64,000 nucleotides of DNA from Octopus vulgaris (lineage: Eukaryota): NCBI GenBank assembly GCA_951406725.2, contig OX597820.1, positions 95,790,001 to 95,854,000 on the forward strand, read 5' to 3'. Below the pieces are notes generated by a model. It did no database searches and was not told where the DNA came from. It saw only the letters and a list, made by a program, of their open reading frames with translations. Below, one piece after another: positions 18,330 through 49,667 of this stretch; the stretch's first letter is position 1, and each line of letters begins with the position of its first letter. A program made the translations under genes and the position numbers.

Positions 18330-18445
18330 CTGCAAAAATCATGAAAAATATAGCATTTAAATGTTCATCCATTTTTATAGATATTTGAATAAGAACGAGA
18401 CGAGTCATTATAGAATAGATTGCATGCATTCTAGCCGGGCAAATA

Positions 18446-19689: not shown

Positions 19690-19740
<51 letters not shown>

Positions 19741-22880: not shown

Positions 22881-23126
22881 TCATCTGTAACTTAGAAGGA
22901 ATTTAATTGACTTCAAAGAGGAATTGAAATCGTGTTTAACGAGGATATCGGTCAGATTTTACTTGTGAGTCAAGTACCTTCCTTGTATTGTTGTGGATGA
23001 AGAATATGAAGTTGAAACTAGCTAATGATACAGGTTCTGAATAATTGATGGTTGTATAATAATGAAATACGTTGAGCTAACCATAGTATATAGGATACGT
23101 TTTAGCGTAGAAGGTAATATCTCGGA

Positions 23127-23448
23127 ACGCCCAGCCAGCCAGTTGTTTATTATGAATAAAAATCTTACCTTAGTCTCATATACACGCTTTGGAAGAACAG
23201 GTAGTGGTGACTTTCTAATGTTCAGTTGAATACGAGGGCGTTAATGTCCAGCCAGTCAGTGGGTTATTATAAGTATAAATCTTACCTTAGTCTTATATAA
23301 ACCTTTTAGAAACGCAGTTAGTGGCGACTTTCTGATGTTTGGTCGAATAGGAGGACATCAACGCCCAGTCAGTCAGGTTTATTATAAGTATAACTCGTAC
23401 CTCAGTCTTATAGACACTATTTGGAAAAGCAGTTGTAACGACTTTCTG
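23127..23448. repeat. ~118-bp diverged tandem repeat, ~2.7 copies
   Basis: Units start at ~23127, ~23245 and ~23362 (CCAGxCAG..TTATTAT..CTTACCTTAGTCT..GACTTTCT). Confidence 0.85.
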
Positions 23449-26960: not shown

Positions 26961-27694
26961 GAAGACGTGCTGAAGTCATAGGAAGAGATTGAACTATATA
27001 AAAACCCTATAGTCCGAATAAGCTGTAGGAACAGCATTTAAAGGCTTCACGCAGAATGGTGAAAACAGGTTAGCTTAGTGAAACACAAAATTACATGCAA
27101 ATTATTGACAACAACCGAAAATAAAAGTAAGGAAGAGAAGGGATCTCTTTTTCTTAGTATTTATCTGAGAAAAGCTTTCAAATTATATTAGAGAGAATAT
27201 CTACAGCTAGGGATAATAAGGAAGAGTTCATCTATTGGGAAAGAGCGGTCATGTTTTTTCTAAAATTACTTACAAATAACTTTATGAAGAATTATGAGAC
27301 TTCATCTCAATTTAATGCTTGTAGTTCAGAACAAGAGACACTGAGAAATCCTTAATGAGGTAACTTGGCCTACTGGTAATAACAGACAAATTACAGTTTT
27401 CAAAAGAAAAGCACACCTCGGATAATGTATTCCAAATAGTCACCCATCAAAAAGATGTGACGGTCACAGCTGAATACCTTTCGCCATTGGTCTAATCAAA
27501 CAAAATTGCCTTAACAACGACAACAACAACAACAACGAAAAGAACAATTAAGACAACGATGATAACGACAGCAACTTCAGCACAACAGATAATGCCATTG
27601 TATAGCTATTTATCATAATTGTTTTATCTGAGACTTTACTCTTCTTTATTAATGTATGCGATTTAGACCTTTTTTTCAGAAGTATTATATTTAT

Positions 27695-28058
27695 CCCAGT
27701 GAAAATCCCAGTGAAGGCGCATGGCTCAGTGGTTAGAGCGTCGAGCTTACGATCGTGAGGTTGTGAGCTCGAATCCCGGACCGGGCTGGGTGTTGTGTCC
27801 TTGAGCAAGGCACTTTATTTCACGTTGCTCCAGTTCACTCAGCTGTAGAAATGAGTTGCGACGTCACTGGTGCCAAGCTGTATCGACCTTTGTCTTTCCC
27901 TTGGATAACACTGGTGGCGTGGAGAGGGGAGGCCGGTATGCATGGGCGACTGCTGGTCTTCCATAAACAACCTTGCCCGGACTTGTGTCTAGGAGGGTAA
28001 CTTTCTAGGTGCAATCCCATGGTCATTCATGACCGAAGGGGGTCTTTACCCTTTATTT
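27695..28058 (+). mobile_element. tRNA-derived SINE with a 7-bp target-site duplication
   Basis: GGCGCATGGCTCAGTGGTTAGAGC...CTCGAATCCCGGACC head and GTGTCCTTGAGCAAGGCACT core; TATTTAT on both sides (27688-27694, 28059-28065); the empty site is seen at ~31137. Confidence 0.85.
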
Positions 28059-28748
28059 TATTTATATTGCAAGTAAAGACATTGTTTATTTTTAATATGC
28101 ATTTAATTCCGAAACTTGAATTTATATCCTAACATTCTTTACCTGACAGCATCCTGTTATTTAATATTAATAAATCAAGATGTGTTGGTCTGTGGAATGA
28201 TAAATCTAAAACTAAGAACTTATAAAGCAAGTTCACAATTTTGTGATATTCTACACGTAAGAATTATATGACAATGGCATATAAACTGCATTTTAACATG
28301 AAAATCAAAAGGAGAAATATGTCTGAAATTTACAAATGTAATAAAATAGACAAATTATATAAGAACTAATTAGTTCACATTAAACAATATTTCATCTTAG
28401 TTGAATTACAATTATATTCACTATAAATCACACCTTTGTAACGGAAGAGTATATTTGACAGAATTCACTTCACAGTATATCGGTTAATTATTTTTTATCG
28501 ATCCCAAAAGAATCAAAAGCGAAACCAAAGCTGTTAAGATCTGAAATTAGAAAATCCTTGTTACACGGTGGAGCATATCTATATATACTCACATGTTTTT
28601 TTTTTGTACTCAATATCACTAGAATATACTTAGACTTTTTACGTTCTGAGTTAAAATACTACCGAGGTCGACTTTATATTTCACCTTTTCAGGATAGGTA
28701 AAATAAAGTACAAATTGAACACCGAAATCGACGTAATCGACAGCCTGT

Positions 28749-28789
<41 letters not shown>

Positions 28790-28861
28790 TGTGTATGTGT
28801 GTGTGTGTGTGTGTGCGTGAGCGCGTGCGTGTGAGTGCGTATGTATGTATATATATACATA

Positions 28862-29713
28862 CGTGGTCTGATTAATAAGTATCCGGACTGTTACAGTTCT
28901 AAAACACGCAGAATGAAGCCACTTGGCACATATTGACCTTGCACTTTGTTGTGCATGCGCTGTAAGGCTTAACGTTCTGGCTCACTTCCGTTGTTTACAG
29001 CAGTGCGTGGAAGGAAAGGAAGGTGTGTAGCGTGTGATAATTGCATTGAACATGACAGAGTGTTGAGCAGAGAATCTGCATCAAATTTTGCCAAAAGCTT
29101 GGCGATACCAACTCAGAGGCCTACGCAAAGTTTTCAAAACGTTTTCATCGTTCTCGACACAATCAAGGAGATCTAATGCAACTGAAACCCGAATCTCTTC
29201 TTGGTCAATTGAATTCAGTTTGGGCACAAAGTTGGCAGTCACGCATCTCATACCCAAATCTTCAGTGATAATGGACTGAGGTGAACTTTAACTAATCTGC
29301 ACATTCTCTGATAACTCATGGATGGTGATTCGACGATTTACCCTCACAGCTGCACGCACATCTGCGATGCTTTTCACATACCTGCTAGTTGCGGCCTCAA
29401 TATCGACATTTTCGGCCATCTTAGAAACATCTGAACTACTCGTACACTTGTGTGTGGCTCATACACTCCTCTACATACACGTTCTGCAACTTTGCGTAGG
29501 CCATTGAGCAGGTATCAATGCAACGATCATTCGCAACACACCTTCCTTCCAAGCACTGCTGTCAACAGCGAAAAGGAGGTAGGACGTAGAACGTGAAACT
29601 TTAGAACGCATGCACAGCAGAATTCAAGGTCAATCTGTGGCAAACGACTTTACTCTGCGTGCTTTAGCTTTGTTACTATGGTAAGAGTCCGGATACTTAT
29701 TGATTGGACCTCG
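28862..29713. mobile_element. Non-autonomous mariner built from two inverted 5' ends, TA TSD
   Basis: TA|CGTGGTCTGATTAATAAGTATCCGGACT ... AGTCCGGATACTTATTGATTGGACCTCG|TA; the left part encodes EQRICIKFCQKLGDT on +, the right part DTCSMAYAKLQNVY..CMSHTQVYE on -. Confidence 0.8.
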
Positions 29714-29726
29714 TACTCAGACATAT

Positions 29727-29768
<42 letters not shown>

Positions 29769-30935
29769 GCACGCACACATATATATATATATATACATAC
29801 ATACATAATACATACATACATTGTGTATATATGTATGTATATTTACTGACTAGAACCCTTGAAACTTTCGCAGCGAAATCGTGTGAGTAAACAAGTCGCA
29901 GCTGATGCGACAAAAATTTTGACACAAACGTTTAAGTGAAGTAGTTTGTGTATGTCTTCGAAAGGCTAAGCATTTTGCCTGGGGTGCTAACGGTTCTGCC
30001 AGATAACTGGTAGCCGTAATTGAGGACGTCTGTTCTAGATTTTGCAAACAGATTTTCAGCACGAAAGCGTTTGGTTTCGATGTGAACTTTTTCCCTATAC
30101 AACCATATTCAGTAGGGAAATAAGTGATGTAAAATGAGTAAATTTAATTCTTTAATTAAGAATCGAAAGTAAACAGTGGAAAACATAAGGCGAATCTGAC
30201 CACTTATTTAGACGAATGTTCTGTAAGTATATTGTATTCTGGCATAAGTACCCAAACTTTCACCACTTATAGTACAAAATTACTGAGGGTTAGCAAACAA
30301 CACATTCATGCTTTTCCACCTGAATAAAACAATTAATATAAAATTAAAATATGGAAAAAAAAAAGGCATCGGAGGGGCGATGCACACTCTGCGTCTGCAT
30401 CTGTAGGTAAATTATTTCGCAAATTATAATATGGCTTACCCATGCATTTTAATTGAATTCTGTGTTTCATTAAAGAGAATTAGAAGACTAAAAAGATGAC
30501 AGCTAAAAGTAAACATGATAAAATATTCAACGACTTCCAAAGATGGCAGGCGAATCAAACGCACTGTTGCTCGTTATTGGCTATAAATAATATAACAACA
30601 AGCTTATCGAGTTCTATTAAAAAAAAAAACAATTATTTCAATTTTTTTTAAGTATCACCATTACTGGTATTTATACTCCGGTGAAATTTAAAGACCAGCT
30701 CTAAAATAAACGAAATCCTCGAATCCACCACTGTACACACACATACACAGTCGGATATCTGTGTATGTATGTATGTATGTATGTATGTATGTATGTGTGT
30801 GCGTATGCATGTATGTACCTACAGCTGTCTAGGTGATTAGGTACACCATGATCTATACACACGCAGACGTGGGTCAATATATATATATATCGGTGTGTTG
30901 GTGAGGCAATTCGTTGCTAAACCCTTAATTACTTA

Positions 30936-30975
<40 letters not shown>

Positions 30976-31040
30976 GATTTATATATATATACGATTTATA
31001 TATATATATACGATATATATATATATATACGATATATATA

Positions 31041-31086
<46 letters not shown>

Positions 31087-31100
31087 GATATATATATATA

Positions 31101-31352
31101 TGTATGCGATTTAGACCTTTTTTTTCAGAAGTATCATATTTATATTGCAAGTAAAGACATTGTTTATTTCTAATATGCATTTAATTCAGAAACTTGAATT
31201 TATATCCTAACATTCTTTATCTGACAGCATCCTGTTATTTAATATTAATAAATCAAGATGTGTTGGTCTGTGGAATGATAAATCTAAAACTAAGAACTTA
31301 TAAAGCAAGTTCACAATTTTATGATATTCTATACTTAAGAATGATATGACAA
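31101..31352. repeat. Duplicate of 27655-28275 lacking the SINE
   Basis: TGTATGCGATTTAGACC...GCAAGTAAAGACATTG...GTTCACAATTTT is nearly identical in both copies. Confidence 0.9.
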
Positions 31353-31463
31353 TTTTAAAATGAGAATCAAAACGGTAAGATAACAGAAGAAAGAAAGAGA
31401 CCTCAATATTATGTAAATAGAGGAAATTTATCTGTAAAATAATATGTGACAATTATTCGGTAG

Positions 31464-31531
31464 CCAAGATAAAACTCTGAGTTTCGGATGCCGAGGTGGA
31501 AACCCACAACACCATCTCTTCGGTTATCTGG
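31464..31531 (-). ncRNA. Mirror-image hammerhead variant on the opposite strand
   Basis: Left arm of the same palindrome; the distal stem II is GTGG-gttt-CCAC here versus GTAG-actt-CTAC in the right arm. Confidence 0.65.
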
Positions 31532-31537
31532 AGATGG

Positions 31538-31605
31538 CCAGATAACCGAAGAGATGGTGTTGTAGACTTCTACCTCGGCATCCGAAACTCAGAGTTTTAT
31601 CTTGG
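31538..31605 (+). ncRNA. Minimal type-I hammerhead ribozyme variant (U4C core)
   Basis: GATAA-CCGAAGA-GATG...CATC-C-GAAA-CTC-A-GAG-TT/TTATC: stem I GATAA/TTATC, quasi-palindromic stem III, GUU site at 31594-31596. Confidence 0.65.
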
Positions 31606-31636
31606 CTACCGAATAATTGTCGCATATTATTTTACA

Positions 31637-31690
<54 letters not shown>

Positions 31691-31840
31691 CGTATATACA
31701 CGCAGGTATGAGTTAGAGCATACACCTCATCACAGACTTAACGAACTGTGAACCCCAATATAATGTAAGACACTCAGATCTTTGATCGCTTTTCCGATGT
31801 AACCACTGATTTTCACTCTTCTCTCTACCTCTGACCTCTT

Positions 31841-31926
31841 CGGTCTGACAATGTCTACCATTAGCAACGAGGCAAAAATATAACATATATTTTCCCCACC
31901 GTGGTAAACAGAAACGATCGTAAACA
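31841..31926 (+). ncRNA. Degenerate minimal hammerhead
   Basis: CTGACAA-TGTCTACCA...TGGTAAACA-GAAA-C-GATC-GTA; 9-bp stem II with one mismatch, palindromic ACGATCGT stem III, G8 mutated to A. Confidence 0.55.
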
Positions 31927-32012
31927 ACTTCACTCTCCCTCTCACCTTTATTAATAGTTAAATAATGGCTCACTAGCGCGACAAACACTTGTTTGTCCTC
32001 CATTTTCTTCTC

Positions 32013-32078
<66 letters not shown>

Positions 32079-32111
32079 CAGATATAATTTCCGGAGACAT
32101 GAGGAAAGCTG

Positions 32112-32168
32112 TTGATCACACAGCTGTTCATTTCACAACCGTTGTGAAATGAACCGTTGTGTGATCAA
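32112..32168. repeat. Short palindrome, 28-bp arms with a 1-nt loop
   Basis: TTGATCACACAGCTGTTCATTTCACAAC-C-GTTGTGAAATGAACCGTTGTGTGATCAA, 2 mismatches, 40 bp from (TA)n. Confidence 0.85.
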
Positions 32169-32607
32169 TCTGCATTGTTATGGATGGATTCACCTTCTCT
32201 GAGAAGTTAACAGTCTTTTTAAAAGCTTTTTATAAAACTGTGCATCATTGGAAAGCAATTTGAGTCTGCTTATAATTTGACTTTAAATTTCATAGAACTC
32301 ACTCCTAATACTTCATGAGGATAGACACACTCTCTAGGATGTCTGGAAAACATATATATGTGATTTAGCTGATGAATACTGGACATTTGTATTTGCTGCA
32401 ATACTTGCAGCTTTAAATAAAATTGTTCTTGGTATGAAACAATTGTACTAAACTACTAATCCATTCTTGTTGCTTTTTTCTTGGTTATAATCACCCCACA
32501 TTATTTTATGGTTAATACCAAAAACAATTCTGGTGCATCTAAGTTAAGTGCCATATTCATTTGAATTCATTGGAATTCACTTGAATCTTAATTGTTTTTG
32601 GCTGAAA

Positions 32608-32645
<38 letters not shown>

Positions 32646-32759
32646 CATTTAAGATCTATGTGATCTTCCTCTAGCATATGGTTATCCACCTAGTGGTTTT
32701 TAGCCCTAAATATACACATATATATATATATATATATCTGTATGTATGTGTGTGTGTAT

Positions 32760-32850
<91 letters not shown>

Positions 32851-33049
32851 GTACTGTTCCGTGATGGTAAAGTCAACAAAAAGAATTCTATCTGGTGAGA
32901 GATAAATAGTATTTGATAGACATGTTTTCATGGGCTAGTAAAAGATTTTTTATATCTGAGAACATTTTTTATATCAAACGATGCATACAAAACGATGCAT
33001 ACATAAATTCTTTCGCAAAACTCTGCACAGTCAAAAATATGCACAGTCA

Positions 33050-33265
33050 GAATATTTTGATTCACCCGTCCGCCAGTTTTGAAGATAATCAAACCAAAAT
33101 TTAATAAGTTCGAGCCATTTATCTAATAAATATTACTGCCAAATTCGGTGAAAAATCCATCCAGGCGTTTTCCAATAATTGTGCAAGCACTAAGACAAAC
33201 AGACAAACAATGACGAACGACTATAATACCCTGCATTCGCTCACGCATGCAGGGTAATAAAAATA
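33050..33265 (+). mobile_element. Helentron-associated (HINE/DINE-like) non-autonomous element, 3' end
   Basis: CCAAATTCGGTGAAAAATCCATCCAGGCGTT core, GACA/AACA microsatellite, then the hairpin TACCCTGCAT..ATGCAGGGTA (33227-33256) and an A-rich tail. Confidence 0.55.
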
Positions 33266-35187
33266 AAATACAGTGAACTAAAGGTTAACGGATTCGATAG
33301 GGAGTCGGAACTTAGTCAAGATTAAGAGATTACGTCTTCAGCGAAATGTAAATAATCGCTCAGACGCAAAACCAGTTTAGCAACAAGGTAGATCAATTTG
33401 AAGTGGTCAGTTTAGTTGAATACATCGAAACAAGTACTTGACTGGTACTTTATTTTTCGACCCCCCCCCCACCGGAGGGATGAAAATCAGTTAACCTCAG
33501 TGGGACTTGAACTAAAAATGTAAGCTACTAGAATAGATAGTGGGTATTCAAGCCTTCATCAAGTTTGTTGATAGTAAAGCTAGTAAAGCTGAATGCATAC
33601 AACCCAAAATTGAAATCAGATAACAAAGCCTTATACCGCTAGAACTTCCCCTCGTAATCAGGTCTTATTGCTGCTGTAAACTTGTAGCAGTCTCAGAAGG
33701 TTTACGACGCCAGTTGGAAGAAAACTTTCCTAAAGGGTAAACCATTAGAAACATCTGTTAAGGACCATGATAGGTTGACTTATGTGATGTTGCATATAAA
33801 CTGACACTGGAAATATATGTAATGCAAGAAATGCATGTTATTTCATATAATATTACATTTTTGTTAAATTCTATATATTTCGATTTCGGAATAGATTACC
33901 TTGTAACAATTGGAATTTTATATTATCGGGCAATCAGGTTTACTATTTATATCGTTCATAACATCATTAACGGGTACAGTGACTTTCGGTTTTCCTCTAG
34001 AAATCTAATCTTAACCATGTATTCGTCCATGGAAACATGATATAATGAAAATCATTCAAACTGGTATTAATGTTATTAACACGAGGAAAATATAAAATGA
34101 AAGGAGGACGATCGAGACGTTATCAAATTACATATATTAAACTATTTGATCTTGTCGACAATGCCAAAAAGACTAAAGGAATTAAGGAAAAAGAGAGCAG
34201 ATAAATAAATTAGTAAATAAAGGATAGAGAGAGAGACAGAGACAGTGGAGAGAGAGAAAACAGATTGAGAGATATTCAGTAGTATTCTTAAATTGCCGTC
34301 CATTATATCGTCGTGGTTATCAGTGATTCGATTAATTTTTACTTGTTATCTATAACTAGCCTAAAGACTCCAATTACATTTTGGAGACATTGATCATTAG
34401 GAAAATACCGAAAGTTTATAATATGCAGGAAGTAATACATGAAGAATAAAAGGTTAATTGGCAGTTATTTCAAAGTAGATAATCACAAATAGGCAAATCT
34501 TAATTGCTATCCTAAAAGTAAATCTGTCCATATAAAAGCAGTCACGTAGTTCATAATCCTTTCCCACTGCGCAGCATATTGAGCGTCTTGGATTAACAGA
34601 TTGCCCAATAACTCGTGAGTAGAATTTGTTTAACAGCAACTGTGTAGAAGCCTTTCGCAAGAGCTGCAAACGGCTCCTGGTTCAAATTTGGTTGTAGAGT
34701 GTATTCATCTAAAAAGTGGCACGATTCTTTCACCACTCCTTCACATATATATCCACTAATTTTTCCGCATCTGCAGACGTGATGATTTGATTAGCTATAA
34801 GTCTGTTTAACTATCTCCTCTTCCATTTGAGAAATCCATATTTCTTATATCTTCTGAAATGAATTTTGCCTTTAATATAATAGTATATACAGATATATTT
34901 ACCTTTATATATATCCACCTAATTTCGTCGACGAAAGGTCGGATTTCACCTGAAGAAATGACGAAATGGCGCAGTTGCGCATTAACGTGAAATTATGTTA
35001 TACTGCGCAATTATTATGCGTTGTTAAATAAATGACAACGCTATTGAAACGCGTGTAATGATGTTTTGATCTTTCTATACTTTTTTCTTTACCATACACA
35101 CACACACTCACATATATTCATGTATGTATGTATGTATGTATGTATGTAGTATGTATGTAAGTATGTACGTATATATGTAATGTATGT

Positions 35188-35239
<52 letters not shown>

Positions 35240-35250
<11 letters not shown>

Positions 35251-37665
35251 CATGATTGTATTTGTGGTGTTTTACTAGATTAAATCTTTTGTGTCTAGTA
35301 ATTCTGCCGTACAGTGTTTGCTTTTGCCGTGCATGTGTGATTCCGTGTTCCAGTCGTCGAAATTTTGGTTTATCTTTATACAGTGGCTTTTTATGATAAT
35401 TAATAATGAAGTGGAAGCTCCCATTAAGGAAGATAATTGTATATGCAATCATTCAAAATATAGTTCCAGAATTTAAGGACTGGTTTCACCAAGATAGAAA
35501 AAAAACAATAAAGATGCTGGCTACTGTAAATGTTATAATGTTATTTTGATAAATGCCAAATAAAAAAAGTCCATCCTACTGAAATACAAAGTTTCTGTCA
35601 AACATGAGAAATGCTTTGATGTGATTAAATTTAGTGTTAATATTTCTCAATTCAGTGAAAAAGAAATCAGTAGAGAGTGAAAAAACAACCAAATGTGAAT
35701 TGCTTTTTGATGGCTATTGAGTATAACATTTTCTGTGAAAACATTGATAATCTTATGCCGGTAAGGGAATATTTCTGGGATGAAACACCACTGAAATGCT
35801 ATCAAGAAAAATGTATGCATTTTATTCACCTGGGAATAGCCTTTCATGGAAAAACTGATAAAGATTATCTGCAAAACATGTTTTCTTTAATCATTGATGA
35901 ATGTACAGAAATTTCAGTTAACCAAATTCTAGCTACGAATGTAACTTAACTTCGGTTTCAATAAGCATGTTATTGTAGATACTATGTTAGATACTCTAGC
36001 TGTCGTCAAAGGAACGGGTCTTGTTATTTACCTATACTGTCAATTCTACTTGCCATGAAAACAAATATTCGTCTATAAAATATTGAATTTACAAGTAAGA
36101 ATTTTTAACTCCACGATGGGCACCGAAACTGTGTTCCGGTAATTACAGAACGATAATATGCATTTGTCCTTACTTAGCTCTGTGTACTAGCCAAGCTGTC
36201 CATGGTGAATTGCCCAGGCATTTAGAAATCTTTGAAAAATACTAAACTTATTATTTTTCTCACAGCGACTGAAGAAGAAATAGTAGTTATAGGTAGAATT
36301 TAAAATATAGTTAGAAGAATTTAAAACATAAAAAATAAATAGTCCTGGTCCAAACATGCCTAGAAGAGTAAAACTCCAAGCCTTGAATTGCAGGAGGTTG
36401 GTACACAGTGGATGTACGCTTCAACAAAATAATTCATTGGATTAACACAATTTCTGCTTCACTAGAGGATATCCTGTCCCTACTAATGAGGAAATGCAAC
36501 CTACAGGAGGAGCTTACGACACCTGTCAGTATGAAGCTATTGAAAAGAAGCAAAAAGCAAAAGAAAAGAAATTTGATGTTTACCTTATTTATTTCCGAAG
36601 TGAATCCACCGATGATGAATTTAGGGAATGTTGAATTGTAGTTTGAGCATGTCAGTTTACATAATCTGCATTTAATATCCTTAGAATATAAACAACAGGT
36701 TGACGACTTAAAGGCGAATGTTTGAAAATCTTGGTAAACGATATCGACCCAAGTGAATTATTGAAGAATCTTAAATTCCCCAAAATTGATCCACGCATTG
36801 GAAGTAATTACAAAAATATTAAAGCTGTTTACTTTGTAGAAAAGGCAAGACCATATTTAATTACTAAACATTTAATGAAAATTTAAAACTGTTTGAAATT
36901 CCTTAATGTTTACTTTCATTGAAGATGGGATTTTTAAAAATTTAATTTATTAAACTGAAAATAACATAGGATTCTACGCATCTCATTCTTCCAGCTGTTC
37001 ACTTGCATTAGACCTACACCTATTATTCTACTAGCTGTTCATTTTCCATTCATTGTCAGAAAGCTGTCTAAACGTTCAATAGACAAGTTATTGTTTAACA
37101 GCAGATAATTTCCTTATCTCTACTGAATTTCCTTATCTCTACTGAATTTCCTTATCTCTATTCCTGAATACAAATTAAAAGACAAATTCTGAATTCAAAA
37201 TATTTTGTTATTCAGTTATTAGTCCGATTTAATAATCTTGCCATATTTGTCAATGTACGTTGAAAGGATAAGCTCTGTAATAAACTGTGCCAAAATGAGA
37301 AATAATTATTTGTCAAAAGCAGAGCATATGAAAGAGATTAATTGCAAAGCAATTTATTACTAGAAATATTGTGGGAAACACTACGTAGAAGACCAAGAAA
37401 TAATTAGTGAAGGTGATTAAGAAAGGCTGTGTAAGCAAAATGTACTACGGAAAGAATAAAAGGAGTAGACAGAAAATAACGAATTGCTTACTGCTTTAAA
37501 TGGAACTGACGAAGAAAAAGTGAAGAAGAAGGAGGAGGAGCAATTATTATGTTCTACATATAAAGTAAATAAAATATCGTTGTATTTCTATTTTAACACA
37601 ATATTGGTTTTTCTTTCGTGTCTAGTAGATCTGAGAGTTTTATGAAAATCTCACTGGCGGCTCTG
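35240..37665 (+). mobile_element. Decayed hAT-like transposon
   Basis: FSLIIDECTEISVNQ (hAT first catalytic Asp motif, FSLxxDESTDIS) in ORF 35677-35949; BED-finger-like remnant upstream; CTGGCGGCTCTG-type right end near 37665; left end unclear. Confidence 0.6.
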
Positions 37666-38489
37666 ATATAGATTTCCCACTATACGTACATCAGCTGAAA
37701 TAGCTTGGATATCTTGTTCGCATGTCCGATTTTCATTATCTCCATAGGTTCCTCTACGACTAAGTACACCATGAACAAAGTTTGGATAGTATAACAAAGA
37801 AGCAATTCAAGGATCACTCGGAGGTGATTTCAATGACAAGGGATACAACTTAACACCAAAATGGGGAGAAAGTGACGTGCAGGCAGAATTAGAGTGGACC
37901 TCTTCAAGCAAATAATTACTTATCCTATCTGTGAAAGACGTTGTACAGCAAAGAAATAATGTATAATCTAGAATTAGGACATAGCCATCAAAAAATCAAC
38001 ACCTAAAGAAGAAGGCTACTATCGGGTTTGATAAATAATTATATCCACATCGTCTGCAGTTGTATAAAGTGGTGAATATGGAGGAGAAAAGTTAAAATAG
38101 CTTATTTACGAACGAAGAGTTTTTAAATATTGGACTAGCATCGAGTGATATAGATTTTTCTTGTTCTCGTCATAACCAGTGTAGCATTGACTTGGCGCCT
38201 TAGAAACCTGTAACCAAGATCGCTATTGTTCATCAATTATGATATAAAATAATCCTGTTTATTATCGGCACAATACCTGAAATTTATGGGGAGGGAGTTA
38301 GACGATTTCCTCGGCCCCAGTGCTCATATGGTACTTATTTTATCAATCCCCGAAAAGAGGAAAGGTAAAGTCGACCTCGGCAGAATGTGAACTCGGAACG
38401 TAAAGCGGGAAGAAATGCCACGAAACATTTTTCTCGGCGTGCTAAAGATTCTGACAGCTAACTGGGAGCTGTCTTTACGATATAAAATA

Positions 38490-40490
38490 ATTGTAATAAT
38501 AATAATCGAAACCCTAAAACAACGTGTGCAGGCAAAAACATTAAAGGTGCAACGCTACACCAATCGCATATCGCAGTTCCAACAAAACAGGTTATTCTCA
38601 AATAATCAGAGGGAGTTTTTAAGCTCTTAGGAAATACAAAAGATAATATACCACCTGAAGTGGAAGAAACACGCCAATTTTGGAATAACATCTTGGGGAA
38701 AGAAGTTTCCTACAACCACGGTGCTAAGTGGATTCATTCTGTGAGATCCGAACTCCATCGCCCGAAGGCTCCACGGAAGGATCATGTACGCATAACAACG
38801 GAAGATGTAATTGCACGGATATTAAAACTGCGAAACTGGGAAATGGCAGGACCAGACAGAATTCCAGGCTATTGGCTCAAGTGGGTTAGGTCAACACACT
38901 GCGAATTGCAGTTCCGGAATGGATTGTTGAGGGAAAGACAACATTGTTGTTGAAATATCGGTCTAAGCGCAATGACATTGTCAATTACCGACCTATTACT
39001 TATCTTAACCTCTTATGGAAAGTGTTAACAGACATCCTCGCAAGAAACATATATCCGTTCCTTGCGGAAAACAATCTACTTCCCGTAGAATAAAAGGGAT
39101 GCCGAAAAGGATCCAAGGGTACCAAGGACCACCTTGTGATAGACAAGGTTGCAATGAAGAACTACAAACGGAACCAAAAAACTTGTACATGGCCTGGATA
39201 GACTTTAAAATGGTTTATGACATGTTGCCGCATCCGTGGATTCTGGTAATATTCAACATGTGTGGAATAGCTGACAACGTTTGTGCACTGATTAAGAACA
39301 ACATGCCTAGTTGGAAAACACTTCTCTTCTGTAACAACCAGCACTTAGCCGAGGTAACAATCAAAATAGATATCTTACAGGGAGATTCCTGTTCATCTTT
39401 TTTATTAGTTATAGCCTTGATCCAACTTTCTCTCGTCCCACGCAAAGTCAATGCGCGCTGTGAATTGAGAAATAATGGACCTAATTTCAACCACATTCTC
39501 TTCATGGATGATTTAAAACTGTTCGCAAAAACAGAGCCTGAAAAGAAAAGAATGGTTGAGCCTGTGCAGATGTGCGTTGAAATTCGGTAGCTCGAGGTGC
39601 GGTGTCCACTTTGAAAGGGAGTAGGGATGAGCAGATTGTAGATGCATAGAATTGCCAAACAGAGAGCGAATGGAAGACCCGAATGATGATGGGCATAAAT
39701 ATCTTGGTATCTTGGAACTGGACAATATCTTGCATAGATAAATGAAAGACAAGGTCGTCATATTAGAAGCGTCTTATATTTCAAGCGTCTCAAACTTCTC
39801 TTGAAGCTAAAACTCAACTCGAGGAACCATGTAACTGCCATCAACATATAGTGCATCCATTCTGAAATGGACTTGAGCGGAGATTAACCAACTTGATCGC
39901 ATTAGCCGAAAGACAACGACAATGCATGGTGCCTTCGACCGCAAGGCGAACGTACACAGACTCTACATGAAAAAGTGTAAAGGTGGACGTATGGGAGTGC
40001 ATCAACAGTGACAGACAAATCATGACAGAATATTTGGTAAATAGCAAACAAGGACTTGAGAGTGCTATGACCAATAGCACATGTGAGAGAAGAAACTCTA
40101 CTCCGCATGATATCACATGGTAAGTTCCACCGTGAAACTAACGACCAAGACGCATCATGGTGGTGGCTCAGCAAGGGTGACCTAAGAAAGGCGACTGAAA
40201 GCCAAATCAACGCTACCCAGGATCAGGCATTGAATACCAATCCAGTGAAAATGGATATATATACCACCCAAGTGAAGCAAACCACTGCAGAGTGTGTGAA
40301 GAGGGGCAAATGAGTGACTCATATTGCTAGGGCTTGTGAAAACCTTAAGTAGAATGAGTACAAGGCACGACAAGGTAGCCCAAAACCTTCATTGGCTGCT
40401 ATGCCAGAAGTATGGATACAAGGTAACGGGTGCTTGGTACCAACATACATAGGAAAAGGAAATGGACGAAAAGGGAAAGGCAAAAATCCA
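38490..40490 (+). mobile_element. Dong/R4-clade non-LTR retrotransposon (RT pseudogene)
   Basis: AGPDRIPGYWLK, YRPIT, KNLYMAWIDFKMVYDMLPH, ILQGDS, HILFMDDLKLF, then RHDKVA-like ..LHWLLCQKYG; many frameshifts; starts in a TAA-rich tract. Confidence 0.85.
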
Positions 40491-40539
40491 TTTCGTCCTG
40501 CGTGCTAATGATTCTGTCAGATCGCCGCCTTAATAATAA

Positions 40540-42635
40540 CACTGGTCAACAACCAAAATGCTTCTGAGACCAGAGTAGCAATTTCCAAGTAATTTTAGGT
40601 CACTGGATATCATGGCTAAAACTGTTTTTAAGACACACGTACGTGTCACAACAGGTTCCAACAGGCTTGCGGAAGTATGTTTCTTACCGCACTCACTGTC
40701 CCACTGCTCTTCAGTATTGTTCCAGCAGTCATAGGAGGTGGTTGTGCTGTGCAAGTTTATATACTGAGGTGAAAGGTAAGGGATTTTCCTAGTCAAACAC
40801 TTTTTAAACTTATAATAAATATGCATTGAGTAAGTTATTGATATGCATGTGATGGCATTTTATATTAATTTTATTTTTCTACTGAATGATATAAACACTT
40901 CTGCTTAGCTGTCATGTTCTGTATGATAATCATAAATTTATGAGCGAATTATCAGTTTATCTGCTAATTGTTTGTTGTTTTCTTCTTTAAAATGCCTCGC
41001 ACTTGTGTGAATAAGGCAGATAACTTCTGCTACATTTGTAGTGAGGCATATAACTGCTATGGTTAGAAAGGTATATCACATATATTTTGGATGCAAGATT
41101 GGCGACCAGGATAAGAAGTGGGCTCCTCACATGTACTGCAACGCTTGTGCTACTAACCTTCGCCAATGGTTGAACAAAAAGAGAAAATAAATGTCTTGTG
41201 TTTTGCCAATGACGTAGCGGGAGCCAATAGACCACACCAACAATTGTTATTTTTGCATGGTACTTCCAGTAAAAAAGGGCTTTGTCAAAGAAGGAAAAAG
41301 AGTCCATTCTGTATCTAAACATTCCATTAGCTACCGGCCCAGTTCCTGATAAACTACCGTCGATATTCTTCGAGTCAGAAGAAAGTGATGAGGAGGAAGC
41401 AGAGTAGGATGACAATGCTAGATTACAGAATGACCCAAAGTTTGATGAAACACACTCCTCTAGACCACATCTCATAGCACAAGGGGAACTCCATGACCTT
41501 GTCAAGGATCTACAACTACCTAAGAATAAAGCAGATCTACTCGGCTCTCGTCTGCAACAGTGGAGTCTCCTAATAGCTGATGTAAAGGTTTCAAAATTTC
41601 ATGACTGTCAGCAGCAGTTCAGCAGTTTCTTCATAATGAAAAGTGATTTATGGGCCGGCAAGAATTTTAATGGTCTGATGGAAGTGCTTGATATTGAATA
41701 CGAACCCAGTCAGTCAAGGCTGTTGATAGATTCATGAAAAACTTGTCTGAAAGGTGTCTTGTTGCAAAATGGCAATAGTGAACCTTCCGTTCTTGTGGGC
41801 TATGCATCACATATGAAAGAATCTTATGAGAATATAAAGCTTATGCTGCAATGCATAAAATACAGTGAATATCAATGGCAGCTCTGTTGTAACTTAAAGG
41901 TAATTGCTTTTGTAATGGGCTTGCAGGGAGGATGCACCAAGTACTGCTGCTCTCTGTGTGAATGGGACAGCCATGCAAGAGATTCCCACTGTATCAGGAG
42001 AGACTGGCTACCTCGTCAGTCATTGAAGCCTGGGACGAACAATTTTCAACATCCACATCTCACTGAAACAATCCAAATTTTTAGCTACAACCATTACACA
42101 TAAAACTGGAGTTCATGAAAAAACTTTGCAAAGGCTATGAACACTAACATAGAAGAAGGAGGTTTCATTTATCCTCAGAATTGGTAGAAAACCTCATCAA
42201 GGCTTACACATGGGATGTAACATGTCACGTTAAATCCACGTTTTGGACTTACATTTAGACTTTTCTCCAGCAAACTGTGGGGCAGTTAGTGACGAACATA
42301 GTCAAGGGTTTCACCAAAATATTTCAACCATGGACAAGTGATACCAGGGAAAATGATGCAAAATGATGCTTGCTGGAGATTGGCAAGAGATTATTTTTCA
42401 GCTCTCTATAAGCGTCAAGCAAAAAGGCAGAGAGTAGATACGGACAACAGCTTTAGATATAATGGCACATATTGCACGTTGTAATAAAATAGTCAAATGT
42501 CACGTGTTGTGTATCTTTATGCCTATAGCTAATAAGTTACTTTTCAAGGTGATATTTGGATTCAGGACATGAAAATACTTAAGAATTTATTAATCCCATT
42601 AAAGAAGCCCCCAACTTTTCAAAAATTGAGTAGTG
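40540..42635 (+). mobile_element. Chapaev3-like (CMC superfamily) DNA transposon, pseudogenised
   Basis: TAA|CACTGGTCAA ... TTGAGTAGTG|TAA termini with a 3-bp TAA TSD; encodes CVNKADNFCYICSE, YFGCKIGDQDKKWAPH, REPIDHTNNCYFC and GLQGGCTKYCCSLCEWDS. The family name is from recall of these motifs. Confidence 0.7.
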
Positions 42636-42655
42636 TAATAATGATGATGATGATG

Positions 42656-42734
<79 letters not shown>

Positions 42735-42736
42735 CA

Positions 42737-43076
42737 ACGTGTCTCTAAAAGAAATAGAGAAACTTTCAAATTACAAAGACCTGGAAATAGAGGTAACTAG
42801 AATGTGGAATCTAAAAACAGAAACATTTCCTATCATAGTAGGTGCATTAGGCATGATAAAACAATATTCAGACAAATACATAACAAAAACACCAGGACTT
42901 ACAAACACATATAACATACAGAAAATTGCACTACTAGGCACTGCACACATCCTACGCAGAACACTTTCAATACAGTAACCATCAGAGCATCACAACAAAT
43001 CACAGCACACACCCAAGGCACACAGAGCTGCGCTCGGTAATGAAGTGAAAGCACGTTATAAAAATAAAACTACTGA

Positions 43077-43078
<2 letters not shown>
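42737..43078 (+). mobile_element. 5'-truncated Dong/R4 LINE 3' end inserted in (TAA)n
   Basis: KEIEKLSNYKDLEIEVTRMW..PIIVGALG..IQKIALLGTAHILRR (restriction-like endonuclease C-terminus); TAA arrays on both sides. Confidence 0.85.
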
Positions 43079-43132
<54 letters not shown>

Positions 43133-43298
43133 TATCATGTCTAATTCGTATGGTTTGTCAATACGATAATTAACTGAAATTTTCTGCACTATAGTACAGG
43201 TAATTTCATCATTTACATTTTTATTTTCTATCCCACATTCCGATTAGTATCATTTCAATCGTCTTTAGATCCCTCATTTCTATATATATAATAAGATT

Positions 43299-43363
<65 letters not shown>

Positions 43364-43421
43364 CATTATTGGTGAATTGAAGAAATGGAGCTGAACGCAG
43401 ATTGAACAGAAATCGTTTTAT

Positions 43422-43508
43422 TTCATTCTACACGTGTTTCGAAAGGCACAAATTACCAAAATCCGATGGAATAATGGGACCATATTGTGTCTTTCTCTTC
43501 AGGAAGAA
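43422..43508 (-). ncRNA. Identical hammerhead ribozyme on the opposite strand
   Basis: Mirror copy in the left arm; predicted cleavage between 43429 and 43428 of a minus-strand transcript, which is the sense of the host LRR gene intron. Confidence 0.82.
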
Positions 43509-43560
43509 AATAGGAAATCCGTTGGAAAAACAAAAACAGAACAGAGGCGGATTTCCTATT

Positions 43561-43647
43561 TTCTTCCTGAAGAGAAAGACACAATATGGTCCCATTATTC
43601 CATCGGATTTTGGTAATTTGTGCCTTTCGAAACACGTGTAGAATGAA
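43561..43647 (+). ncRNA. Type-I hammerhead ribozyme with an intact core
   Basis: TTCTTC-CTGAAGA-GAAAGACACAA...TTGTGCCTTTC-GAAA-C-ACGT-GTA/GAATGAA; canonical CUGANGA and GAAA, GUA cleavage triplet ending at 43640, palindromic stem III ACACGTGT, then AATAAA. Confidence 0.82.
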
Positions 43648-43865
43648 ATAAAACGATTTCTGTTCAATCTGCGTTCAGCTCCATTTCTTCAATTCACCAA
43701 TAATGTTCTAATTTCAATTATCCGCACCAACGCACGGTTGCAACACCATATGGTTGTACCTCCAACCGTGCTGTTTTACTGCTGTTTTACTGCTGTGATT
43801 TTTGCTACTAAGGTATCGGTTAAACTTTTGATTAATCTACTACAAGATTATTCATCTTTCTATTT

Positions 43866-43904
<39 letters not shown>

Positions 43905-44734
43905 CTGTTTAGCATTGAAGCAGTAGTTAAGAATGATGGCAGAGTGGTTGAGAATGTTGAAACCCTTCGTTAGTATTATGAGATATATATAGAAATAGCG
44001 CGCACGAAAACACATGCTAATTGAATCATTCGGTAGAAAAAGCATGCACGATGATATTAAGAAACCACTGGATTGAAATCTTAATTGCGTAGGAAAATTC
44101 TTATTTTGAAAAGAGTCGAAGTAAGCGTTGACCTTAATGGAATATAATACAGTCTGTAAGATATATTTCGGAGTCTTTAATCTCACAAAAGCCTGTGTAT
44201 CACACATGTAGCAGATATTTACAAAATTCACATACACTCAAGGAGAAAGTAATACGGAGACATGACAATCGCAAGATTAGGATTATAAATTACTACTCTA
44301 CCTAAAAAGAAGTTGTAGAAATTATGTCCTGGAATCGAAAATGTTATAAAAACATTCAATATCGATTTTTAATTCTTTTAGATACTGCAAGTAATGTCAG
44401 ATGCAGACCTAGATTGCAAAACAAAAAAAAATTGTTTTGCCATTTAAATACGAGAAGTAATGTTAGATGCATTCCTAAATTACAAGACAAAAACTGTGTT
44501 ACCATTTAAAATAAAATCTCACACTAATTAAAAATTGATTCTCGGTATCGAGACCAACAACATGGTACTTAGCGTTGTAAATAGAAATCGGTAGTAAGAG
44601 GAGCGAATAACAATCAGTATTTTCAAGTTTTATACACTTACATGAGGCAGTGCAAAATAAATTAATTGAAAATGGGCAAGGGGGAAGGGTTATCATTTAA
44701 AGTTTGATATAAGCTTATAATAATTATAAGCATA

Positions 44735-44778
44735 TAATAATAATAATAATGATAATAATACTTCTAATAATAATAATG

Positions 44779-44824
<46 letters not shown>

Positions 44825-44853
44825 TGATAATAATAATTATAATAATGATGATG

Positions 44854-44910
<57 letters not shown>

Positions 44911-44925
44911 TTTTTATTATTGTTA

Positions 44926-44981
<56 letters not shown>

Positions 44982-45014
44982 GTTAGTGTTATTATTGTTG
45001 TTGTTGTTGTTGTT
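44735..45014. repeat. (AAT)n array followed by the inverted (ATT)n array
   Basis: Seen directly; orientation switches near 44910. Confidence 0.9.
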
Positions 45015-45500
45015 TTACTTCGCAGAGCGCTCGGTTTTGTTTGCTCTGGTTGATTCTGTGAGAGCGGGCAGTAGCCTGTCGTCAGAGGTCAAACAGGGTC
45101 TCTTTCTGCACAATATAAACTTTGATACTTGGTTCTTAATTATCGAGGAAGACATTCTACATCCAAGTACCAGTCTCAAAATCCTGGTTGTGTCCAGCAG
45201 AGCAATTTTGGATGCTTGCTCTGCTCTCTTGTTAATTCCGATTTCTCTGACATATTTCTTGAACTTGATTGTTAATGCACCATGTGCCCCTACAACTACT
45301 GGAATGACATACACTCTCCTCATTGTCCACTCGTGCGTTTTAATAATTTCTAGTCCATTGTCACTTATGCGAGCATCCCCAGATATTGTAATATCTATAA
45401 TCTTTTTTTCCTTTACCTACCACAACAATGCCTGGCGTCCGAGCCTCGATTAGGGAGTCGCACTGGATTGTAACTGTGTCTTATGTTTATTGTTCTTGAT
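45015..45500 (-). mobile_element. Dong/R4 LINE 3' fragment
   Basis: VIPVVVGAHGAL...SKIALLDTTRILRLVL; ends in CAA/TAA repeats on the minus strand. Confidence 0.7.
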
Positions 45501-46581
45501 CACTCCTTCTGGTTCATGTTCGTAGCATTTCCGTGCTCCGTCCAGGCCGTACTTTTCATATAGACCCAGTGAACAAACTTAGTCACGTTATTGTGCCTCC
45601 TCCACCAGCACCACCAGCACCACCAGCACCAGCACCACCACAGTAGCTTAACAATAATTAAATTAGCAGCTTTAAGCACCAACAAATGCATGCTGTTTAA
45701 GAAAAAGGGTTACATGATATATTCACAAATAAGTGATTATGTCACCTCCCTGTCTTTTTAAGAACTTTGTAATTTATGGAAGTGGAAGAATTTGGAGTCT
45801 TCCCTCTTGTAAGGAGTCTCTGACAAAGCAGTCTTGTATTAGATTCCAGGTTGAAATGGCCAATACCTCCAACAGCCCACTAAATGAAAATGATGTCATA
45901 ATATTATTTGGTTCACACAATCTGTACCTAAATTATGATGACTGGTTGATGATGATGGTAATGAAATTGCATGTTTCAGTTTTCCTCACCCAAAGAGATC
46001 GCTTTTCTGCCGACAAAAGAAATAGACAAATCAAGAAGAGCAATCAAAACCGGTGAATATGTTGTGATGAGTCCGTCATTGGCTATGCTGATGATCATAC
46101 TGATGATCGACTGTGAAATGAGCAAGACTTGTTAACATACCTTGAAAATACCTGAGGCAAGATCGGTTAGTTTTCAATGCGAAAAGAAAAGAATAAAAGG
46201 AAATTGATAAAAAGAATAAAACAAAATAAATAAAATATGATTGATTAATAAGTGACCATCAATATGAATGAAAACCATTTGCCAGTGTGTTTCATCGAAA
46301 CTCAGAGATCAGAAGTTTCAAGTACTTTAGGTCTTATGATGCTGAAAGTAAGAAAGATTTCCTGATACATAAAGGGTGTCTTGGAGTGCCTACTTCATTA
46401 CATCTGGCAATTGCCAATAATCAGCTACGTAATATAATTATTGTCATCAATGAAAAACTGATGACTCTCCACTCAAGGACTGAAATTTCTAACAGATTTG
46501 CAACAACTACCAGTGTGTTAACAATATGTAGCATGTATTCAAGGCAGTTTAAATATGCATTTTACGCTTAAGTAGACTGTG

Positions 46582-46653
46582 ATCAATCAACCAGAATTTT
46601 AAAGCAAGGCAAAATCTTGCTCGGTGATATCGATCTTAGGATTGTTATTTATT
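46582..46653 (-). pseudogene. Possible decayed LRR pseudo-exon
   Basis: tgttag|A ATA AAT AAC AAT CCT AAG ATC GAT ATC..TTT GCC TTG CTT TAA; INNNPKIDITEQDFALL* matches the N, I, F and L spacing of an LRR, but has a stop and no donor. Confidence 0.3.
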
Positions 46654-48766
46654 CTAACATACAGAATGGTGCAATTGCAAAAGAATACGGGGTAAAGAGC
46701 TAACAGAAATGACATCCTCCTTCTTACTGAATGTGGAGAACATAACTTAGTAATCAGTAACACACTATTTTGGCAAACAAGCACAGACAAGGGTTCCCAG
46801 CGCCATCTGCGATCAATGTACTTGTATAAAATTGACTTTGTCAGTATACAGATGCGCAAGTATTAGGTTGGACAATTAACAAGTATCAAAACTGAGATCA
46901 ACGAGGTTGAGCAGACCACGACTGAATACGATATTACATGGCAATTTATCTCGGTGAATTTATGAAATAATGTCAACAGATATCAAAACCGCAGAATATC
47001 AGAGTATTTTAACTAGTTCTGACAAGATACGTCGTCATCCATAAGTCTAGAACTCTACGACATCCCTCAAAATACATGATGCACTAAAAAACAGGATATG
47101 CTTGCAGATAGCCAGAAGCCTTATTCTTTATAGCGAATAAACATTGAAAATAATTTGACGAGAACATTGTCTAAATCGTGCAGATGACCAACAGGAAATC
47201 AACAGTTTCACATGTATTCAAAACAAAATTAATGATCACGAAAGGAACGATTGCCTGCAAGCAAAGCCTGCTCTCTAGTATCATAAGCGCACCATAAAGA
47301 ACAACTAATAGAAGGCCAAAATATTTTAATACTATATATTAATATACCTATAATCCAAGTAAAAATTTCCGGTAACTTTGTCTAAACACATTACAAAACT
47401 AACCAAAGTACAAGCACCTATCAATAGCCGGTGAGTAGAACATTTCAAGTCAATGATGAACAACTTAGGTATATCATCTGACAATGCCAAAAAAAAAAAA
47501 AGAAAGAAAAAGAAATGCAATATGTTCTTTAAACCACAAAAGGGAATCGAAGTCTAAGGATTTCAAGGAACGAGATGTCAGTAACAAAACTCTATGCACT
47601 GGGCCTCAAAGAAGTAAATATATCTTACATTGGGACCATAGTTATGAATGATCAACATTAATGGTTAGACAATGTCATACAAATGGTGGATCATCAGTGG
47701 TCCAAAAAGAACTACTTTACTTTTAACTGAACGAAGGAAAATGCCCTTAATGAAGATAAAGAATGCAGTTCAAATTTGTACTAAAAGAAATTGTTAAAAA
47801 GAGAGTTATCAATATATTTGAGATGAGAAACTTTTGCTGTTAACCAACCGAGATCTACACACACTGTCTATAACAGAGCAGAATATTTTGTCATCAGTTC
47901 GAACATTTCAACGATAGGTTTGAGTGTAGCAATGTTAAACGATCAACTCAGAATCTCTTTCCCTGCAACACATCTTACTTTTGTGGAAATAGAGTTCTGA
48001 GCGATATAGAAATGTTCAGAAAGCGAGTTCTAAAGTAGTGAAATATCAGTCTGTTTAGACATTCTTTGAGACTATAACCTAGGACGGCCTGTGATTGGAT
48101 CGTAAGACTCATATTCGGCCAATAGAGTTAACATACCAATCCACAGAATAAAAGTCTGAAGAACAATTATCTTGGACCATAAGATATTTCCGTCAATAAA
48201 AAGTGTAACCTCAACTAGTAGGCCAATACAACATTAGTCCGATATTTCAAAGATCACGTAAACCGTCTATCACTCCCGATATAGATAAGAATAATTCAAG
48301 ACATACAGTCACATATATTGCATAAATATAATTTTTTTTTTAAATATCATTTCCTTCTAATAGTAAAGTGCATTCTCTTGATTACGATCTTCCCAAAATA
48401 TATATTCAATTTTCTTGTCATAAGAGTAGCACTCCATAGTTTCCTGAAGTCAAATATTTCCAGATATATTCTCTTTCGTTAACGCTAAATAATGAAAAAG
48501 AGAATATTCTATTGCTTCAAATTCACACATCCTTCAGTTTTGTTGTTTTTTCTTCTGTACTTTCATATTTATGCTAGTCAATATTGTAAAATCAGTTCAC
48601 AAATAACGACCTATTTCCAGCTGACGTACCTACAAAAAATGGCATTTATCTGTTTGAAGCGTAAGCCATAAAACAATGATAGTATGGCCAATGGTCTGTT
48701 GTAGATAACTTATGAAAAGGTGAAAGAGTCAAGAAAAAAAAAAGAAGAAGAAACTATTACACTTAC

Positions 48767-49461: not shown

Positions 49462-49632
49462 GGCAATCTTACGGTTCTAGTATATGTTACGTCAACTGAC
49501 CACGTGTATTTGTTTATATATGATCGTCGATTTCCGTAAACAACTTTTATTTTTTTACATTTATTTTTTTACATATGGGGTTGGGGGAAATGGGATCTTT
49601 GGGGTTAGGGTTAGGGTTAGGTTTAGAGTTAA

Positions 49633-49667
<35 letters not shown>

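What the first reader, a model, noticed from the sequence alone, without database searches (positions are those of the whole stretch)
43362..43868. Perfect 160-bp foldback carrying back-to-back hammerhead ribozymes on both strands, embedded in (TA)n
Seen: two identical arms, each with a complete CUGAAGA / long stem II / GAAA / C-ACGU-G / UA hammerhead followed by AATAAA, pointing outward. The block continues to ~43868 (extra hairpin GCACGGTTG..CAACCGTGC at ~43733-43771) and is bracketed by TA tracts. Established: minimal type-I hammerheads with palindromic stem III mark Penelope-like element pLTRs and retrozymes, often cleave as dimers, and Penelope insertions often carry an inverted pLTR. Inference: this is a very young, protein-free, ambisense ribozyme element. 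A transcript from either strand would have to choose between self-cleavage and a 160-bp dsRNA, a possible ADAR or Dicer substrate. The minus copy lies in the sense of the host LRR intron.
Basis: partly seen in the sequence, partly recalled or inferred. Interest (0 to 1): 0.9.

Follow-up and report, generated by a model that had tools for sequence, protein, structure and literature searches.

The report
Truncated Penelope retrotransposon with inverted end
The mirror-image pair of hammerhead ribozyme motifs is the clipped tail end of a common, very young, protein-coding jumping gene in an octopus genome, a shape this family makes routinely and likely by copying its RNA twice from two fixed start points, so it is not a new self-contained ribozyme element.

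Summary
The perfect 160-bp inverted repeat, both hammerhead motifs and the TA flanks are real. They are not a protein-free element. The block is the 3' end of a young Penelope-like retrotransposon (PLE): 1,823 exact copies of half the ribozyme, intact 895-aa RT/GIY-YIG-type ORFs in 3.6-kb tandem units. The window copy is a direct piece plus an inverted piece joined at a 4-nt microhomology; its junction is unique in the genome. This is the family's usual insertion shape: 49 of 70 sampled insertions; 24 of 70 carry whole ribozymes on both strands. Inverted pieces start at one fixed site, direct pieces end at another ~150 nt downstream, pointing to two separately primed cDNAs (inferred). The ribozyme fold covaries across subfamilies, but each strand's transcript holds one ribozyme, made after its antisense arm, so the hairpin should win (127 kcal/mol). 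It lies in an LGR5-like intron. Modest extras: the family is Hydra-like yet has lost the cysteine linker proposed to target microsatellites and still sits in (TA)n, and its 'tail' is about four times the usual 30-40 bp.

The parts
43281..43361 (.). left (TA)n target tract
   Evidence: 48 of 49 two-piece insertions of the family have (TA)n on both sides
43362..43551 (-). inverted piece of the element's 3' region (190 nt, includes the 26-nt 'spacer'); outer end at the family's fixed site B
   Evidence: 100% identical over 190 nt to other copies; 56 of 58 site-B ends in the sample fall within 18 nt of each other
43429..43502 (-). hammerhead motif, core to predicted cleavage base (43429), in the sense of the host pre-mRNA
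43548..43551 (.). CGGA microhomology shared by the inner ends of both pieces
   Evidence: junction 25-mer has 1 match in the genome
43548..43868 (+). direct piece: 3' end of the PLE unit (pLTR), ending at fixed site A
   Evidence: matches the intact tandem unit L032 with no mismatch apart from an 11-nt gap
43567..43640 (+). hammerhead motif, core to predicted cleavage base (43640); long stem II, palindromic stem III (dimer type)
   Evidence: covariation in 16 sequences
43708..43868 (+). 'tail' between sites B and A (150 nt plus the 11-nt duplication), with hairpin 43732-43771 and a duplication at 43769-43796
43869..43900 (.). right (TA)n target tract
18330..48765 (-). host intron (about 30 kb, limits approximate) of an LGR5-like receptor gene that holds the insertion
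   Evidence: exon blocks of P0108 at 48837 and 18328

Best explanation
This is the 5'-truncated 3' end of a young, protein-coding Penelope-like retrotransposon inserted into a (TA)n tract, built of a direct piece and an inverted piece that share 160 bp, likely because two cDNAs primed on the two cut DNA strands at two fixed start sites were joined through a 4-nt microhomology. Shown: identity to an autonomous element, the two fixed outer ends (site A and site B, about 150 nt apart), TA flanks, variable inner ends, microhomology. Inferred: the element's RT/endonuclease cut both strands of the TA tract; one 3' end primed copying at site A, the other at site B; both stopped early, and where both had passed the ribozyme the product is a perfect foldback with a ribozyme on each strand. 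The ribozyme is a selected part of the parent element's RNA (predicted to cleave as a dimer or with the element's protein); in this insertion it is predicted to be locked in double-stranded RNA and silent. Confidence: about 0.97 for the identity, about 0.65 for the two-primer route.
For: 1,823 exact matches to the ribozyme's 3' half, 0 for the control. [quoted passage not shown] Of 70 insertions formed by the first 100 matches on C1: 49 inverted+direct, 12 direct ending at site A, 9 direct ending at site B; 24 with whole ribozymes on both strands; 24 outward-pointing pairs, 0 inward. Site B serves alone as a 3' end in 9 of 70, as a priming site would. Neither piece is a copy of the other: the direct piece has the tail, and the inverted piece reaches further 5' in 28 of 49 (also in the window, by 30 nt); in 10 of 49 they do not overlap at all. 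16 of 21 cleanly resolved junctions have 2 nt or more of microhomology against 16% expected. Same two ends in subfamilies 62-75% identical and in a second family in the same intron. In vitro, an Anolis PLE cuts and extends both strands and starts at two internal sites that delimit the tail (PMC11167929).
Against: Inner ends of the two pieces lie within 40 nt of each other in 17 of 49 insertions against 5.9 by permutation and cluster at short palindromes or hairpin bases, which a fold-back (self-priming) step also predicts. 28 of 49 junctions could not be resolved to the base. Pfam gives no RT or GIY-YIG hit for the ORF itself (GIY-YIG in 1 of 16 homologues) and no solved structure matches. The sample was chosen by a ribozyme motif, which favours copies that overlap there. 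No biochemistry or reads across the junction.
Confidence: 0.85

Rival explanations
1. Same parent element, but the inversion arises by self-priming: one cDNA or antisense template folds back at a palindrome and is copied again (model of Arkhipova et al. 2013, PMC3846280).
For: Excess of near-equal inner ends, 17 of 49 versus 5.9; junctions at palindromes such as CCGG, TTCGAA, CCATGG; the window junction uses the TCCG/CGGA arms of a small natural hairpin.
Against: 10 of 49 insertions have no overlap; in 28 of 49 the inverted piece holds sequence absent from the direct piece; in the window the loop sits in the inverted piece, the opposite of a snap-back from site A; site B is also used alone in 9 of 70. 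Two same-sense cDNAs can also anneal only at palindromes, so these junctions fit both models.
Confidence: 0.2
2. An autonomous or MITE-like, protein-free ambisense ribozyme element that moves as a foldback unit and switches between self-cleavage and dsRNA.
For: The ribozyme fold is under selection in the family; foldbacks are frequent; one other locus (L034/L098) has the same inverted inner end and a similar junction.
Against: The junction is unique; the other foldbacks have different junctions; no tandem units as in retrozymes; one ribozyme per strand, made after its antisense arm; 127 kcal/mol penalty; the covariation belongs to the parent lineage, not to the foldback.
Confidence: 0.03
3. 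The perfect inversion is an assembly or chimera artefact.
For: Perfect palindromes can be made by library or assembly errors (general knowledge); no contig listed spans this junction.
Against: The left end falls at the family's site B next to (TA)n, the spacer is element sequence absent from the right arm, and 49 of 70 insertions, including 90-95% diverged ones, share the shape.
Confidence: 0.03
4. A host-recruited regulatory hairpin or ribozyme in the LGR5-like intron.
For: It lies in the intron with one ribozyme in the host's sense.
Against: Zero substitutions from the active element, so too young to show selection; kilobases from either exon; a second, unrelated insertion of the same kind sits in the same intron.
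Confidence: 0.02

Closest known systems
Hydra clade of Penelope-like elements (Craig et al. 2021, PMC8557442), e.g. Penelope-13_HM, Hydra-1_cRog, Hydra-1_oBim
   Same: DKT motif, RW motif, C-terminal GIY-YIG-like domain with CxxC and CxH, (TA)n insertion, 3' hammerhead with ACAC/GTGT-type stem III. Penelope-13_HM is listed with a 5'-truncated inverted copy and the same hammerhead on both strands (Files S1, S2).
   Different: 3.6-kb unit (described members mostly under 3 kb), 895-aa ORF with long S/N/G-rich inserts, CxCX5C linker lost, stem II region of 55 nt, a hammerhead sequence unlike Hydra-1_oBim's.
Metazoan PLE minimal hammerheads (Cervera and de la Pena 2014, PMC4209133)
   Same: Type-I core, unstable palindromic stem III suited to dimer cleavage; that paper already reports pairs 100-700 bp apart on opposite strands.
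   Different: Longer stem II and an 8-nt stem III palindrome; activity not tested here (low in vitro for their minimal motifs).
Poseidon PAc of Anolis (Frangieh et al. 2024, PMC11167929)
   Same: Two internal start sites delimiting a tail, both target strands used, AT-rich target, stem-loop in the tail region.
   Different: Tail there 30-40 bp and inside the ORF start; here about 150 nt and upstream of the ATG.
Non-LTR retrozymes (bioRxiv 10.64898/2026.07.22.740005)
   Same: Short, non-coding, pLTR-derived, type-I hammerhead.
   Different: Retrozymes are head-to-tail tandem repeats with two or more same-strand ribozymes; this is a single head-to-head product.
L1 twin priming (recalled; search listing only)
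   Same: Inverted 5' piece joined by microhomology.
   Different: Here the second start site is fixed and the two pieces usually overlap (38 of 49).

Membership tests
Penelope-like element (EN+) | Single ORF with PLE-type RT and C-terminal GIY-YIG endonuclease in the parent element | tested here: met
   895-aa ORF, RT motifs and YVG/R/H/E/N-type EN region aligned with 15 of 106 homologues; Pfam did not call either domain
Penelope-like element (EN+) | Tandem or partial-tandem units forming pLTRs, inverted 5'-truncated copy, tail | tested here: met
Penelope-like element (EN+) | Hammerhead in the pLTR | tested here: met
Hydra clade | DKT in place of DKG; RWK motif | tested here: met
   SDKT present; RWL in place of RWK
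Hydra clade | EN with CxxC and CxH around conserved E and N, no CCHH motif | tested here: met
   CNLC..E..N..CPH read from the ORF by eye against the Fig. S7 legend
Hydra clade | CxCX5C linker between RT and EN | tested here: not met
   SGCRSRNEYSD in 31 of 36 copies read, none with the full motif; 74 of 74 homologues long enough keep it; absent in older subfamilies
Hydra clade | Insertion into (TA)n | tested here: met
   48 of 49; older subfamilies too
Hydra clade | RT phylogeny with named Hydra references | tested here: inconclusive
   No named references held. A quick tree puts the family beside linker-bearing P0001/P0002 (SH-aLRT 98), so it is filed as Hydra-like, not as a member
Type-I hammerhead ribozyme | Conserved core and three helices with covariation | tested here: met
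   core columns invariant in 16 sequences; 9 of 21 pairs change on both sides, 1 of 500 shuffles as high; slid controls 2-3
Type-I hammerhead ribozyme | Self-cleavage | not testable with these tools
   no genomic footprint at the cleavage base
Non-LTR retrozyme | Head-to-tail tandem units, each with a ribozyme on the same strand | tested here: not met

The most novel reading that the evidence does not exclude
This octopus PLE lineage integrates by a regular two-primer mechanism from two fixed RNA sites about 150 nt apart, finds (TA)n without the cysteine linker that was proposed to aim PLEs at microsatellites, and as a by-product has seeded some 400-500 near-perfect hairpins (extrapolated from 24-29 of 70) that could feed the animal's RNA-editing or small-RNA systems and silence the family.
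Probability: 0.4. Interest if true: 0.55.

Novelty: new variant of a known kind. Interest (0 to 1): 0.3.

Why it matters
The foldback itself is ordinary for Penelope-like elements. The family behind it is useful: how PLEs make inverted pLTRs and tails is still open, and more than a thousand young copies with two well-separated fixed ends let self-priming and two-primer models be told apart from genome sequence, with intact ORFs for an in vitro test. The loss of the cysteine linker with TA targeting kept is a natural counter-example to a published targeting hypothesis.

Tried and rejected
Rfam scan: no hammerhead family hit, only hairpin-shaped miRNA models below threshold. Pfam and PDB sequence searches did not name the ORF. 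Unconstrained folding of one arm does not give the hammerhead fold. Sequencing runs: no RNA holder listed on record; contigs of 4 of the 24 listed runs were laid on 43505-43868: the best contig of X1 (RNA is a guess) has the canonical pLTR order without the 11-nt duplication, no listed piece spans the window's junction, and contigs cannot show RNA ends, editing or small RNAs, so this says nothing either way. Test for cleavage-defined 5' ends: among 70 + 19 insertions one inner end falls at the cleavage base; ends cluster about 10 nt upstream at the base of stem II and at other palindromes (sampling is biased). Tail hairpin: z -2.2, 5 of 200 shuffles as stable, 2 of 27 predicted pairs with two-sided change: weak. 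AATAAA as a used poly(A) signal: DNA copies run 220 nt past it and 4 of 15 diverged copies read AGTAAA; not supported. Counts from gapped patterns over-count on one strand; only the other strand was used (389 site-B and 737 site-A ends next to TA). No earlier notes on this genome.

Full report
Observation. The two arms, 43362-43521 and 43548-43707, are exact reverse complements over 160 nt with 26 nt between them. Each holds CUGAAGA, a 55-nt stem II region, GAAA, the palindrome ACACGUGU and a GUA triplet, at +43567-43640 and -43502-43429; a descriptor finds 3 matches in the window against 0.14 expected. TA tracts flank the block. Rfam returns no hammerhead family. Exons of an LGR5-like protein (P0108, labelled Octopus vulgaris by its source) map to the minus strand at 111618, 74421, 48837, 18328/15985 and beyond, so the block lies in an intron of about 30 kb.

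What it belongs to. A genome search gave 1,440 candidates, of which 40 were scored, most differing from the window only by an 11-nt gap. A 26-mer from the ribozyme's 3' half has 1,823 exact matches, the control 0. [quoted passage not shown] 20 of 147 scored RT matches lie in open frames of exactly 899 codons, so the family is young and probably active. The ORF has 106 homologues at 28-42% identity; Pfam and the PDB do not name it.

Anatomy of this copy. Against the natural unit L032 the window is an inverted piece of 190 nt (43362-43551, including the 'spacer') followed by a direct piece (43548-43868); they share the 4 letters CGGA. The junction 25-mer occurs once in 2.8 Gb, so the foldback has not spread as a unit.

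The shape is the family's norm. The first 100 of the 1,823 matches form 70 insertions, with 24 outward-pointing pairs and 0 inward. Fetched and aligned: 49 of 70 are inverted+direct, 12 direct only ending at site A, 9 direct only ending at site B; 24 of 70 have a whole ribozyme on both strands; 56 of 58 site-B ends fall within 18 nt; 48 of 49 have (TA)n on both sides. Of 19 further loci chosen by the site-A end, 10 show both pieces. Sites A and B are about 150 nt apart; the stretch between them is the single-copy part 43708-43868, the 'tail'. Copies 62-75% identical keep both ends and the TA flanks. The 70-locus sample was chosen by a ribozyme motif and so favours overlaps there.

Mechanism. 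The direct piece always holds the tail; the inverted piece reaches further 5' in 28 of 49, the direct in 14, and 7 are level; 10 of 49 do not overlap (11 counted, one being a full-length unit that I removed); inner ends are uncorrelated overall (rho 0.05). Neither piece is then a copy of the other, and site B works alone as a 3' end. I infer two cDNAs, primed on the two cut strands at A and at B and joined by microhomology: 16 of 21 cleanly resolved junctions have 2 nt or more against 16% expected; 28 of 49 were not resolved to the base. This matches the Anolis PLE, which cuts and extends both strands and starts at two internal sites that delimit a 30-40 bp tail (PMC11167929, main text read). 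Against it: 17 of 49 have inner ends within 40 nt (5.9 by permutation) and ends cluster at palindromes, as the self-priming model expects (PMC3846280, passages and Discussion read); two same-sense cDNAs can however also anneal only at such places.

The ribozyme. In 16 sequences (the window and 15 of the 16 diverged copies with a motif, from 20 loci fetched) the core is invariant except the free position 7 and the triplet is GUA, GUC or GUU; 9 of 21 pairs change on both sides (1 of 500 shuffles; slid controls 2-3), 7 of them in stem II; one row (L151) is misaligned at stem III and relatedness inflates the shuffle test. Stem III stays self-complementary, the dimer-type design described by Cervera and de la Pena, who also report pairs on opposite strands 100-700 bp apart and low in vitro activity (PMC4209133, parts 1-2 of 4 read). 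In the foldback, a transcript of either strand makes the antisense arm first and contains one ribozyme; forcing the ribozyme fold costs 127 kcal/mol, against 7-9 for a lone arm. It is therefore predicted to be silent here. Inner ends show no peak at the cleavage base. Expression, editing and small RNAs could not be tested.

Known relatives. The Hydra clade is defined by DKT, RWK, CxCX5C linker, CxxC/CxH, (TA)n insertion and canonical hammerheads (PMC8557442: abstract, passages, section 11, supplement part 2 and search hits read; Fig. S7 seen only as scrambled text). Its table lists Penelope-13_HM with a 5' inverted copy and the ribozyme on both strands, i.e. this very arrangement. The present family meets these marks except length and linker: 31 of 36 copies read SGCRSRNEYSD where 74 of 74 long-enough homologues keep the cysteine motif, older subfamilies lack it too, and a quick tree places the family beside linker-bearing proteins (SH-aLRT 98), so the loss is likely secondary. 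That paper takes TA insertion as support for a targeting role of the linker; this lineage keeps TA insertion without it (help in trans from another family is not excluded). I file it as a PLE and as Hydra-like. It is not a retrozyme (bioRxiv 10.64898/2026.07.22.740005, part 1 of 5 read; its supplements were not seen). Five literature searches showed no description of this family or of a 150-nt tail; a repeat annotation of the species counts 31 recently active PLE families without clade detail in the passages read (PMC13282606), so it may sit in that library.

Verdict. Real sequence feature, ordinary origin; a variant family with two points of specialist interest. Interest 0.3.

Noticed in passing
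window 32074-32608: A second, unrelated hammerhead-bearing insertion between TA tracts in the same intron (motif at +32369-32447, stem III palindrome ACAATTGT, 28-bp inverted repeat at 32112-32168). 2,392 genomic candidates; all 9 opposite-strand partner hits end at query 284-290 while direct hits end near 409, the same two-end pattern with a tail of about 120 nt. Parent ORF not sought.
   Followed up: partly
window 42733-43080 and 45015-45416: 3' fragments with a restriction-like endonuclease look (KEIEKLSNYKDLEIE..W..PIIVGALG), inserted in (TAA)n tracts; resemble Dong/R4 non-LTR elements (label recalled).
   Followed up: no
window 18188-18328 and 15845-15985: A two-LRR exon of the host gene is tandemly duplicated with near-identical sequence; the annotated protein P0108 uses one copy, so they may be alternative exons.
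   Followed up: partly
L032:8916-9839 (minus): 3' part of a different PLE family (YVGETARS..EH..HAEQEH endonuclease) directly upstream of the tandem array, separated by a TA-rich repeat.
   Followed up: no
L034/L098 (G000:C1:58287784-58288292): An independent foldback whose inverted piece stops at the same base as the window's, with the direct piece starting 6 nt earlier; suggests a stall or annealing hot spot at the TCCG/CGGA hairpin.
   Followed up: partly
L141-L160: Older subfamilies carry asparagine-run inserts in the RT-EN linker, like those reported for Adineta Penelopes.
   Followed up: partly
window 49602-49701: Interstitial (GGGTTA)n telomere-type repeat, about 16 copies.
   Followed up: no
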